DNA of 64,000 nucleotides from an uncultured Chromatiales bacterium (GTDB lineage: Bacteria > Pseudomonadota > Gammaproteobacteria > Poriferisulfidales > Oxydemutatoraceae), in NCBI GenBank assembly GCA_964347615.1, contig CAYFZO010000002.1, positions 22,261 through 86,260 on the forward strand, read 5' to 3'. This document shows, one piece after another, positions 13,960-49,065 of the stretch; the stretch's first letter is position 1; each line of letters opens with the position of its first letter. A model generated the notes under the pieces. That model did no database searches and was not told the origin of the DNA. It saw only the letters and a program-made list of their open reading frames with translations. The position numbers were made by a program, and so were the translations under genes.

Positions 13960-14312
13960 TTCGCGCGGTTTGACGGGCGCTTGAACCACGCCGGAGCAGT
14001 GCCGGAATCGCCGCCCGGCCGTCGGGCCGGATGGACCCGGGCAACGCGGGAGCGCCCCGACCTCCCGGAACGGGGCAAGCGAGGCCGGTGCCGGCGGGAA
14101 TCTGCATCAGGAAGCATCGACCGGGTCCCGATCCGGCTCTGAGGCAAGGCTTTATCGCCTCAAAATCAAAGGCTGTTAAATCAAGACATTATCACAGCCT
14201 TGCGACCTGAGGCCCATACAGGCACTTGCACACGTTGGGCATAAGTTGTAAAAAGCGTGCGCCCAAAACAAGCCGACCAACCGAATAAGGCCAAACCAAT
14301 AAGGAAACTGTA

Positions 14313-15185
14313 ATGCCCGTAAAAAAGGCCAAAAAAAGCAAAACCAAAAGCGCGAGAAAGACCGTCTCGCCGCGGAAAAAGACCGTCAAGAAAAAGGCGG
14401 TGCGCAAAAAAACCCGCAGCGCGGTCAGGAAAAAAAGCGCGACCGCGAAGAGAAAAACCGCAAGGAAAAGCGTGAAAAAAGGCGCCGCCAAAAGGCGAAC
14501 CGCGTCTTCCGCCAAGAGAACCGTCCGTAAGAAGACCGCCCGCAAGAAGGTTGTCCGCAAGAAAGTCACCAAGAAAGTCGCCCAGAAAGTCACCAAGAGT
14601 GCGGCAAAAAAGAAAAAGGTCGCCAAGACGGCGAAGCGAAAGCCAGCACCCAAAAAGAAAACCGCAGCCAAGAAAAAGGCCGCTTTGAAACCACGCCGCG
14701 CGGCGACCAAACCGAGAAAACAACCACGAAAAAAACCAGGGGCGCGCATGCTCAAGCCCAAGGAAGAAAACGCGTCGCTCAGGCCGTCCAAGGCCTATCA
14801 GATCAAAAAAGGCGAACCCTACATGAACTCCCAGCAGCTAGAACACTTCAGTAAGATGCTGTTGGATTGGAAGAAAGAGCTGATGAAAGAGGTGGACAGG
14901 ACGGTTGATCACATGAAGTCTGGCGCCACCAACTTCGCCGACCCTGCCGACCGGGCGACTCAGGAGGAAGAATTCAGCCTGGAGTTGAGAACCCGCGACC
15001 GGGAAAGAAAGCTGATCAAGAAAATTGACGAGGCGCTGGGCATGATGGACATGGATGAATACGGCTATTGCAGCTCATGCGGCGCCGAAATCGGCGTGCG
15101 GCGACTCGAAGCACGCCCGACCGCAACGCTTTGCATCGACTGCAAAACGATGCAGGAAATCAAAGAGAAACAGATTGCTGACTAG
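14313..15185 (+). CDS. dksA: DksA-family RNA polymerase-binding transcription factor with an N-terminal ~145-aa lysine/alanine/arginine-rich histone H1-like extension
   Basis: The C-terminal 140 aa aligns closely to E. coli DksA. Shared elements are the coiled-coil tip motif DRATQEEEFSLELRTRDRERKLIKKID and the C4 zinc finger CSSCGAEI...CIDC. The N-terminal part is AKKSKTKSARK...KKKK low complexity. A good RBS (AAGGAAA) sits 7 nt upstream of the 14313 ATG. The internal Met at about 14754 (MLKPKEEN) could give a canonical-length isoform. Confidence 0.8.
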   Translation: MPVKKAKKSKTKSARKTVSPRKKTVKKKAVRKKTRSAVRKKSATAKRKTARKSVKKGAAKRRTASSAKRTVRKKTARKKVVRKKVTKKVAQKVTKSAAKKKKVAKTAKRKPAPKKKTAAKKKAALKPRRAATKPRKQPRKKPGARMLKPKEENASLRPSKAYQIKKGEPYMNSQQLEHFSKMLLDWKKELMKEVDRTVDHMKSGATNFADPADRATQEEEFSLELRTRDRERKLIKKIDEALGMMDMDEYGYCSSCGAEIGVRRLEARPTATLCIDCKTMQEIKEKQIAD

Positions 15186-15263
15186 GGGGCCGACTAGGGG
15201 GCCGACCAGGGGGCCGACCAGGGGGCCGACCAGGGGGCCGACCAGGGGGCCGACTAGGGGCTG
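15180..15263 (+). repeat. 12-nt tandem repeat (GAC[T/C]AGGGGGCC) x7, in frame with and containing the dksA stop codon
   Basis: Seven head-to-tail units. Position 4 of each unit is T (making TAG) in units 1, 2 and 7, and C (making CAG) in units 3-6. The first TAG is the dksA stop codon. Confidence 0.9.
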
Positions 15264-15285
15264 ATTAAGGGGCGATCGGGGCAAA

Positions 15286-15330
15286 CGGCGGCACCGCCGC
15301 CAAGCGAGGTGCCGCAAAAAAGCGTTTTTT
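15286..15330. terminator. putative bidirectional intrinsic terminator between the convergent dksA and monooxygenase-cluster genes
   Basis: GC hairpin GGCACC-GCCGCCAAGCGA-GGTGCC (15290-15313) followed by the palindromic A6GCGT6 tract, which gives a U-run in either orientation. Confidence 0.45.
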
Positions 15331-15370: not shown

Positions 15371-15592
15371 TCAACTCTCCTGATCCTGATCCTTCAGCCA
15401 CTGCCACGGAGTCTCTTTCACGATCAGGAAATAAATCCAGATGTTGCCGACCACTGCGATCAGAAGCAGCACCGCGGCCCCCAAGCTCCACAGCACGTTG
15501 TGCATCACGTCCCGAAAGCCGATGAACTCCATCAGTGCCCATATCGCGAAAGACCAAACCGCCATGGCGGCAAAAGCTGTTAAGGTTTTCAT
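15371..15592 (-). CDS. small 2-TM membrane protein of unknown function, last gene of the monooxygenase cluster
   Basis: I place the start at MKTLTAFAAMAVWSFAIWALMEF, with a strong RBS GGGGAGAA upstream. It has two hydrophobic helices and lies 30 nt downstream of the reductase stop. Confidence 0.45.
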   Translation of the reverse strand: MKTLTAFAAMAVWSFAIWALMEFIGFRDVMHNVLWSLGAAVLLLIAVVGNIWIYFLIVKETPWQWLKDQDQES

Positions 15593-48919: not shown

Positions 48920-49065
48920 GCCGTTTTCCGCAAGCCTTCGGGCATTGCTTGCAGCGACCGTCGATTATACAGCGTCCCCGGGACCCTCCCCGGGAACTCC
49001 CCCGGGAATCCCCCTGGGAACCTCGGGCGTCAGACTTGCACACGTGACAACCCTCCCCGCCGACG

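What the first reader, a model, noticed from the sequence alone, without database searches (positions are those of the whole stretch)
15180..15263. In-frame 12-nt tandem repeat in which TAG/CAG alternation creates the dksA stop codon
Seven copies of GAC(T/C)AGGGGGCC begin exactly at the last sense codon of dksA. The repeat period is 12 nt, so it preserves the frame. In units 1, 2 and 7 the variable base makes TAG (stop); in units 3-6 it makes CAG (Gln). A single T-to-C change in units 1 and 2 would append a (DQGA)n tail to DksA. Repeat expansion or contraction and T/C flips could therefore modulate the DksA C-terminus. Alternatively, the array is a nucleic-acid-level element, such as a protein-binding iteron or a terminator component, sitting just before the bidirectional terminator hairpin at 15290-15330. 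CTAG is usually strongly avoided in proteobacterial genomes, which makes a CTAG-bearing repeat more conspicuous.
Basis: seen in the sequence. Interest (0 to 1): 0.55.

Follow-up and report, generated by a model that had tools for sequence, protein, structure and literature searches.

The report
Strain-variable tandem repeat after dksA stop
The 12-base repeat is real, but it is an ordinary fast-changing tandem duplication that copied the last codons and stop codon of dksA into the untranslated DNA behind the gene; it differs in length between close strains and leaves the DksA protein unchanged.

Summary
There are six perfect 12-nt units GACYAGGGGGCC at 15180-15251 and a seventh partial unit at 15252-15263. 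The variable base reads T,T,C,C,C,C,T, and unit 1 holds Asp290 and the TAG stop of dksA. The stop is ancestral: every close DksA homologue ends ...AD at this position, with TAG, TAA or TGA. So the gene end seeded the repeat, not the reverse. Two sister strains, about 98.5% identical over 6.9 kb, carry 3 and 2 degenerate units of 11-12 nt. A relative at 72% protein identity carries 4 units. One at 63% carries 2 units that copy its own GAT-TGA. Four further '...AD' relatives and 80 more distant dksA loci carry none. A second in-frame 12-nt repeat inside the Lys-rich N-terminus of the same gene also varies between the strains (3/2/1 copies). The 12-mer is not dispersed in the window, matches no Rfam family and cannot be coding in any frame. 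The expanded allele is a canonical G-quadruplex motif (seven G5/G4 tracts, 7-nt loops), but no relative shares this, so it is probably a by-product. Verdict: a young slipped-strand VNTR in the dksA 3' region. Low interest.

The parts
14313..15185 (+). dksA homologue, 290 aa. It has a ~145-aa Lys/Ala/Arg-rich N-terminal extension followed by the DksA_N and C4 zinc-finger domains, and ends ...KEKQIAD-TAG.
   Evidence: ORF list. Pfam PF21157 at 4.6e-33 and PF01258 at 2.5e-11. Homologues all end in AD.
15180..15251 (+). Six perfect 12-nt units GACYAGGGGGCC (Y = T,T,C,C,C,C). Unit 1 contains the last sense codon and the stop codon (TAG 15183-15185). Unit 2 carries a second in-frame TAG (15195-15197).
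15252..15263 (+). Seventh, partial unit GACTAGGGGCTG (9/12 match) with a third in-frame TAG at 15255-15257.
15264..15282 (+). Two old, decayed units (ATTAAGGGGC, GATCGGGGC). The sister strains share them almost unchanged (L003 lacks the G that precedes ATTAAGGGGC). In the 72%-identity relative they are recognisable as GACTGGGGGCC AACTAGGGCC.
   Evidence: Alignment A1.
15288..15315 (.). GC-rich hairpin (GCGGCACC ... GGTGCCGC) followed by A6-GCG-T6 (15316-15330). It is the likely end of the dksA transcript, which would place the array in the 3' UTR. This step is inferred, not shown.
   Evidence: ViennaRNA folds. Conserved in L002 and L003. Not called by the consensus terminator scan.
15371..15565 (-). 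Convergent small gene (called as 64 aa, no Pfam family). Its 3' end faces the hairpin and the array. It is syntenic in all relatives of the clade.
14558..14598 (+). Second 12-nt repeat, in frame, inside the Lys-rich N-terminus of dksA (AAGAAAGTCRCC). It has 3 copies here, 2 in L002 and 1 in L003, giving proteins of 290, 286 and 282 aa.
   Evidence: TRF; alignment A2; protein sequences; indel list.

Best explanation
The array is a young, strain-variable minisatellite (VNTR). It arose by tandem duplication and slipped-strand mispairing of the segment Ala-Asp-stop-GGGG at the very end of dksA. Everything after the first TAG is untranslated, so duplications that include the stop codon are invisible to selection on the protein and can persist, expand and contract. 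A short array of about 2-4 units with an 11-12 nt period existed in the ancestor of this species and its nearest relatives. In the window's strain the units were homogenised to a perfect 12-mer and the C-type unit was amplified to four identical copies. The T/C alternation is inherited difference between unit types: a T-type first unit pinned by its role as the stop codon, and a C-type second unit already present in the relatives. It is not a switch. DksA itself is unchanged. The array most likely lies in the 3' untranslated part of the dksA transcript, upstream of the hairpin at 15288-15315. Shown: the anatomy, the ancestral stop position, the copy-number variation between strains, and the restriction to one small clade. 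Inferred: slippage as the mutational mechanism, transcription of the array, and the absence of a selected function.
For: (1) Copy number differs among strains about 98.5% identical over 6.9 kb: 7 units here, 3 in L002 and 2 in L003, with collinear flanks. (2) The array and a second 12-nt repeat in the same gene are two of only four indel loci longer than 10 nt among the three strains. The second repeat shows the same rank order, 3/2/1 copies. (3) The stop position is ancestral. All homologues of the clade end in AD followed by TAG, TAA or TGA, including four loci with no repeat. (4) In L015 the duplicated unit copies that lineage's own GAT-TGA (GATTGAGGGGCT GATTGAGGAGGCC). This shows that the gene end is the template for the repeat. 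(5) Units of 11 nt in L003 and L014 destroy every reading frame, so the array is not coding in any frame. (6) None of 80 more distant dksA loci has such a repeat. (7) The 12/15-mer is not dispersed in the window and there is no Rfam match. (8) Two unrelated genomes show the same phenomenon, with TAG-type units of this 12-mer starting at a real stop codon: L006 ...PGAD-TAG x2, and L005 ...APQIAP-TAG x3 followed by CAG. (9) Published surveys find tandem repeats enriched just downstream of stop codons in prokaryotes and rarer inside genes (PMC12418385).
Against: A 2-4 unit array has stayed recognisable through about 80-88% nucleotide divergence (L014, L015). The first two units are 21/22 identical between L003 and L014, while the rest of the intergenic region is barely alignable. 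That could mean constraint. It is also expected if unit 1, fixed by coding selection, keeps re-templating its neighbours, and 21/22 is not significantly above the roughly 85% identity of the flanking genes (my estimate, P about 0.14). Only three alleles of the species exist in the databases. No read-level data were available, so within-population instability is untested.
Confidence: 0.7

Rival explanations
1. The array is a functional 3'-UTR element. Its G-tracts fold into RNA (or DNA) G-quadruplexes, or another structure, that tune dksA mRNA 3'-end stability, termination or translation. Copy number would act as an evolutionary tuning knob.
For: The array is the only canonical G4 motif on the + strand of the 64-kb window, where 0.13 are expected from shuffles. 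G4-aware folding lowers the 3'-UTR minimum free energy by about 20 kcal/mol, from -64.9 to -85.3. None of 78 control dksA 3' regions has such a motif. rG4s are reported to be generally depleted in bacteria (Guo & Bartel 2016, as cited in PMC10801317), so a perfect seven-tract motif is conspicuous. A G-rich post-stop repeat persists in the clade.
Against: The G4 potential is confined to this one strain. L002, L003 and L014 have no canonical or relaxed motif and gain 0 kcal/mol from G4 folding. Two strains about 98.5% identical over 6.9 kb do without it. There are no expression data, and the transcript end is only inferred.
Confidence: 0.15
2. The array is a contingency locus for the DksA C-terminus. 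Loss of the T-type units, or T-to-C changes, would fuse a (DQGA)n tail of up to 24 aa to DksA and alter its function.
For: The period of 12 keeps the frame, and units 3-6 are open in the dksA frame. In an unrelated gammaproteobacterial MAG the same 12-mer is translated as an (ADQG)4 C-terminal tail on an LpxH-like protein, so such tails can exist.
Against: The stop position is invariant in all three strains and in every relative. Two successive in-frame TAGs must both go. Sister alleles have 11-nt units, so there the downstream copies are out of frame. TAG is an ordinary stop here, used by 8 of 39 long ORFs. Slippage within the array leaves the 5'-most TAG in place (inference).
Confidence: 0.03
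3. The array is a DNA-level protein-binding array (iteron-like or operator-like), or a set of phased G-tracts that shape DNA between two convergent genes.
For: The direct repeats have a regular 12-nt (ancestrally 11-nt) spacing close to one helical turn. Each unit contains the palindromes GGCC and, in T-type units, CTAG.
Against: The sister strains lack the perfect units and keep only 2-3 degenerate ones. The site is not near a promoter or origin but at the 3' ends of two convergent genes. No further copies occur in the window. The unit has no dyad symmetry.
Confidence: 0.04
4. The array length is an assembly artefact, that is, repeat collapse or expansion in a metagenome assembly.
For: The source is a metagenome assembly, and no reads were available.
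Against: A second contig from an ENA assembly (ERZ21848999 NODE_361) carries the identical array within 6,873 identical bases. At 84 nt the array is shorter than ordinary sequencing reads (general knowledge). The shorter alleles sit on contigs of 0.79 and 1.15 Mb.
Confidence: 0.03

Closest known systems
Bacterial VNTR / minisatellite loci used for MLVA typing, e.g. Bacillus anthracis vrrA (12-bp unit; alleles 301 and 313 bp in PMC2730295)
   Same: Head-to-tail units of about 12 nt, conserved unique flanks, copy number that differs between closely related strains, and presumed slipped-strand origin.
   Different: vrrA lies inside an ORF and changes protein length (my own knowledge). That matches the second repeat at 14558-14598. 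The array in question starts at the stop codon and is untranslated.
Simple-sequence-repeat contingency loci (phase variation in Neisseria, Haemophilus, Helicobacter; e.g. PMC5084427, PMC4081817, listed)
   Same: Repeat-number change by slippage at a specific gene.
   Different: Those repeats sit in the 5' coding part or the promoter, and their copy number changes frame or promoter spacing. Here the unit is a multiple of three and lies after the stop, so copy number does not affect the protein.
G-quadruplex-forming repeats (C9orf72 GGGGCC expansion; bacterial rG4s such as those in M. tuberculosis PE/PPE transcripts, PMC10801317)
   Same: Each unit contains GGGGGCC. The array fits G3+N1-7 x4 several times over and is predicted to fold into two stacked G4s.
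   Different: Folding is predicted only. The motif is absent from sister strains. It lies in a bacterial 3' region, not in a 5' UTR or coding region where the known bacterial examples act.
Tandem (back-up) in-frame stop codons
   Same: A second in-frame stop lies 4 codons after the first in the window, in L002 and in L015.
   Different: Here the back-up stop is a by-product of duplicating the gene end. In L003 and L014 the next in-frame stop is 7-11 codons away because the units are 11 nt.

Membership tests
Bacterial VNTR / minisatellite | Tandem head-to-tail copies of a unit of roughly 10-100 nt | tested here: met
   Period 12, 6.8 copies, 97% matches.
Bacterial VNTR / minisatellite | Copy number differs between strains of one species while the flanks stay collinear | tested here: met
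   7, 3 and 2 units in strains about 98.5% identical over 6.9 kb.
Bacterial VNTR / minisatellite | Length changes arise by replication slippage or unequal recombination at measurable frequency | not testable with these tools
   Needs raw reads or a culture.
Phase-variable contingency locus | Repeat-number change alters the reading frame, protein or promoter of the associated gene | tested here: not met
   The array begins at the stop codon and its unit is a multiple of 3. The protein terminus is identical in all alleles.
Phase-variable contingency locus | High-frequency reversible switching within a population | not testable with these tools
   No read-level data.
Canonical G-quadruplex motif | At least four G-tracts of 3 or more G separated by loops of 1-7 nt | tested here: met
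   Seven G-tracts of 4-5 G (six G5, one G4) with 7-nt loops, 15185-15260.
Canonical G-quadruplex motif | Folding demonstrated, or motif conserved in relatives | tested here: not met
   Conservation is not met: there is no motif in L002, L003, L014, L015 or L016. Folding itself is not testable here.
Intrinsic terminator | GC-rich hairpin immediately followed by a U-run | tested here: not met
   The array itself has no such form and the consensus scan finds nothing in it. A separate hairpin lies downstream at 15288-15315, with its T-run 9 nt after the stem.
Dispersed intergenic repeat (REP / MITE-like) | Many copies at different loci of the genome | tested here: inconclusive
   There are no other copies in the 64-kb window; off-array matches at 3 mismatches equal chance. 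The rest of the genome is not available. Ten hits in 185,579 species genomes are unrelated loci, mostly coding (ADQG)n.
Known RNA family (Rfam) | Match to a curated covariance model | tested here: not met
   The only hit is a chance-level one at 14138-14164 (E = 0.25), outside the array.
Iterons | Direct repeats next to a replication origin or rep gene that bind an initiator | tested here: not met
   The context is chromosomal, guaB-xseA-dksA followed by convergent genes, with no rep gene. Binding is not testable.

The most novel reading that the evidence does not exclude
A post-stop G-rich repeat has been kept in the dksA 3' UTR of this small gammaproteobacterial clade because it is a cis-acting RNA element. 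In its expanded form it would be a stack of RNA G-quadruplexes that sets dksA mRNA 3'-end stability or termination. Strains would then tune the level of a global stringent-response regulator by changing repeat number.
Probability: 0.08. Interest if true: 0.55.

Novelty: new member of a known kind. Interest (0 to 1): 0.2.

Why it matters
As read here it matters little. It is one more bacterial VNTR, useful at most as a strain marker for this uncultured lineage. It also gives a clean illustration that tandem duplications spanning a stop codon escape selection on the protein. If the minority reading were true, it would be a rare bacterial case of a G-quadruplex-forming 3'-UTR repeat that modulates a global regulator, and synthetic 3' UTRs of 2, 3 and 7 units would test it directly.

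Tried and rejected
(1) I looked for more alleles. An exact 36-nt anchor from the dksA 3' end found nothing in JGI metagenomes. Exact-protein look-ups of DksA and of the convergent 64-aa protein returned only the same two contigs. L001 is 100% identical to the window over 6,873 nt, so it is the same strain and not independent.

(2) I tried to name the organism. The cluster look-up returned no names. The closest named DksA is from Methylohalomonas lacus, at 65% identity over half the protein.

(3) Coding in another frame (ORFs 15055..15264 + and 15075..15317 -) is rejected. The 11-nt units in L003 and L014 break all frames.

(4) CsrA/RsmA-binding GGA motifs are rejected. Sister units contain CAGGAGC, but the window's units contain no GGA at all.

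(5) Very-short-patch repair as the cause of CTAGG to CCAGG is inconclusive. The direction of change fits the known bias (PMC5337935). Outside the array, however, CCAG/CTGG are not enriched (O/E 1.06) and CCWGG is itself under-represented (O/E 0.59).

(6) TAG reassignment is rejected, because 8 of 39 long ORFs end in TAG.

(7) A dispersed element is rejected for this window.

(8) The ten hits to two tandem units in 185,579 species genomes are unrelated loci, not a shared element.

(9) A literature search for dksA with tandem repeat and stop codon gave nothing relevant.

Full report
**What is there.** Window 15180-15263 reads GACTAGGGGGCC, GACTAGGGGGCC, four copies of GACCAGGGGGCC, then GACTAGGGGCTG. 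Tandem Repeats Finder gives period 12, 6.8 copies, 97% matches and score 141, the strongest array in the window. The 12-mer with up to one mismatch occurs six times, all here. Dinucleotide shuffles give a mean of 0.58, and none of 100 reaches six.

The ORF 14313..15185 (+) is a 290-aa DksA homologue (PF21157 at 4.6e-33, PF01258 at 2.5e-11). It carries a Lys/Ala/Arg-rich N-terminal extension of about 145 aa. Its last codon GAC (Asp290) and its TAG stop are the first six bases of unit 1. The register can be moved 3 nt to the left, because GCT-GAC-TAG-GGG at 15177 matches GCC-GAC-YAG-GGG at 11 of 12 positions. The repeat therefore copies Ala-Asp-stop-GGGG. Two decayed units follow at 15264-15282.

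**The stop codon is older than the repeat.** The eight closest homologues all end ...(I/V/L)AD. In the loci I fetched the stop is TAG, TAA or TGA at the same codon. This includes four loci of the same syntenic clade that have no repeat: L016, L098, L099 and L100. So the repeat did not create the stop. The gene end seeded the repeat.

**Sister strains.** L001 is 100% identical to the window over 6,873 nt and has the same array. It is the same strain, so it only shows that a second assembly reproduces the array. L002 and L003 encode DksA proteins 98% and 96% identical to the window's. All three strains are about 98.5% identical to one another over 6.9 kb.
- L002 reads GACTAAGGGGCT GACTAGAGGGCC GACCAGGAGCC GATTAAGGGGC.
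- L003 reads GACTAGGGGCC GACCAGGAGCT ATTAAGGGGC.

The window thus has 7 units against 3 and 2 degenerate units of 11-12 nt, with collinear flanks. Both unit types already exist in these strains: T-type first, C-type second. The four identical C-type units in the window are a recent amplification.

Only four indel loci longer than 10 nt separate the three strains. Two of them are 12-nt repeats in dksA: this array, and an in-frame AAGAAAGTCRCC repeat at 14558-14598. The second repeat has 3, 2 and 1 copies and explains the 290-, 286- and 282-aa proteins. The same strain order at two 12-nt repeats in one gene points to slippage as the process at work.

**More distant relatives.** L014 (72% protein identity) has four 10-11-nt units: GACTAGGGGCC GACCAGGAGCC GACTGGGGGCC AACTAGGGCC. 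L015 (63%) has GATTGAGGGGCT GATTGAGGAGGCC, so its duplicated unit copies its own last codon GAT and its own stop TGA. This is either concerted evolution with the constrained first unit or a fresh duplication. Either way the coding end is the template. None of 80 further dksA loci from metagenomes (63-77% identity in the core domain) shows a repeated stop unit. The 11-nt units break every reading frame, so the array is not coding on either strand, and the ORFs at 15055..15264 (+) and 15075..15317 (-) are spurious.

**Is it something else?**
- The 12/15-mer is not dispersed in the window. Off-array matches at three mismatches number 5, against 5.2 expected by chance.
- Rfam gives nothing over the array.
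- A scan of 185,579 species genomes for two perfect tandem units gave ten unrelated loci. Most encode (ADQG)n stretches.
- In a gammaproteobacterial MAG, an LpxH-like protein ends in ADQGADQGADQGADQG.
- The two hits with TAG-type units both start at a real stop codon: L006 ...PGAD-TAG twice, and L005 ...APQIAP-TAG three times followed by a CAG unit. These are independent examples of the same phenomenon.
- A published survey finds tandem repeats enriched just downstream of stop codons in prokaryotes and rarer within genes (PMC12418385).

**Structure.** A hairpin lies downstream at 15288-15315 (GCGGCACC...GGTGCCGC), followed by A6-GCG-T6. It folds at -22 kcal/mol with a modest z-score (-1.3 on the + strand, -1.8 on the - strand). 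It is conserved in L002 and L003, but the consensus terminator scan does not call it. If it ends the dksA transcript, the array is in a 3' UTR of about 145 nt. This step is inferred.

The array is the only canonical G-quadruplex motif on the + strand of the window, where 0.13 are expected. G4-aware folding lowers the 3'-UTR energy from -64.9 to -85.3 kcal/mol. However, L002, L003 and L014 have no such motif and gain nothing from G4 folding, and none of 78 control dksA 3' regions has one. The G4 potential belongs to this one expanded allele. It is most simply a by-product, although it makes the allele conspicuous, because RNA G4s are reported to be depleted in bacteria (Guo & Bartel 2016, as cited in PMC10801317).

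**The T/C site.** CTAG is avoided in the window (O/E 0.42 outside the array), and 3 of its 15 occurrences sit in the array. CTAGG to CCAGG is the direction favoured by very-short-patch repair in enterobacteria (PMC5337935). In this window, however, CCWGG is itself under-represented (O/E 0.59) and CCAG/CTGG are not enriched, so that explanation is unproven. TAG is an ordinary stop codon here, ending 8 of 39 long ORFs.

**Verdict.** This is a real, strain-variable VNTR seeded on the last two codons and the stop of dksA. It lies after the stop and leaves the protein unchanged. The proposed modulation of the DksA C-terminus has no support: the stop position is invariant in every allele and relative, two TAGs must be lost, and whole-unit slippage keeps the 5'-most TAG. 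A regulatory role for the G-rich 3' region cannot be excluded, because a short array has persisted across roughly 80-88% nucleotide divergence. The evidence for constraint is weak, though: 21/22 identity of the first two units between L003 and L014 is not clearly above the identity of the flanking genes. I file it as a new member of a known kind, with low interest.

Noticed in passing
window 14558-14598 (inside dksA): An in-frame 12-nt repeat AAGAAAGTCRCC in the Lys-rich N-terminal extension has 3 copies here, 2 in L002 and 1 in L003. This gives DksA proteins of 290, 286 and 282 aa. The strain order is the same as for the post-stop array.
   Followed up: yes
window 14313-14747 (N-terminal 145 aa of DksA) and ATG at 14748-14750: DksA carries a histone-H1/HC2-like Lys/Ala/Arg-rich extension of about 145 aa, and many homologues carry a precomputed PF07382 hit. 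An analogous H1-like + DksA-like fusion, DdbA, is described in Streptomyces (PMC3643593). All close homologues keep 'ARM' at the junction, and AGGGG lies 5 nt upstream of that ATG. An internal start that yields a canonical-length DksA is therefore conceivable.
   Followed up: partly
window 48965-49024 (G-rich on the - strand): A second 12-nt tandem array (about 4 units, TTCCCGGGGGAG-like, each containing the palindrome TCCCGGGA) lies between the stop of a TonB-dependent receptor gene (49066) and the start of a MiaB/RimO-like radical-SAM gene (48919). It sits directly upstream of TGTATAAT (48964-48971, - strand). It also fits a canonical G4 motif. It may be an operator or promoter element. I did not compare it with sister strains.
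   Followed up: partly
L005 5380-5470; L006 340-380; L007 6573-6660: Unrelated genomes carry the same 12-mer in tandem. In an alphaproteobacterial MAG a PdxA-like gene ends ...APQTAPQIAP-TAG, followed by two more TAG units and then a CAG unit. In a Phenylobacterium MAG a small ORF ends ...PGAD-TAG with the unit duplicated. In a gammaproteobacterial MAG an LpxH-like protein ends in a translated (ADQG)4 tail.
   Followed up: partly
whole window (array masked): CCWGG is under-represented (O/E 0.59) as well as CTAG (O/E 0.42). This might reflect a CCWGG-specific restriction-modification system in this lineage.
   Followed up: no
window ~13949 and ~14286: Two further strain-specific indels lie next to dksA. 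One is 20 nt, present in L002 and L003 but absent here, at the 3' end of xseA. The other is 15 nt (TAAGGCCAAACCAAT), present only here, just upstream of the dksA start.
   Followed up: no
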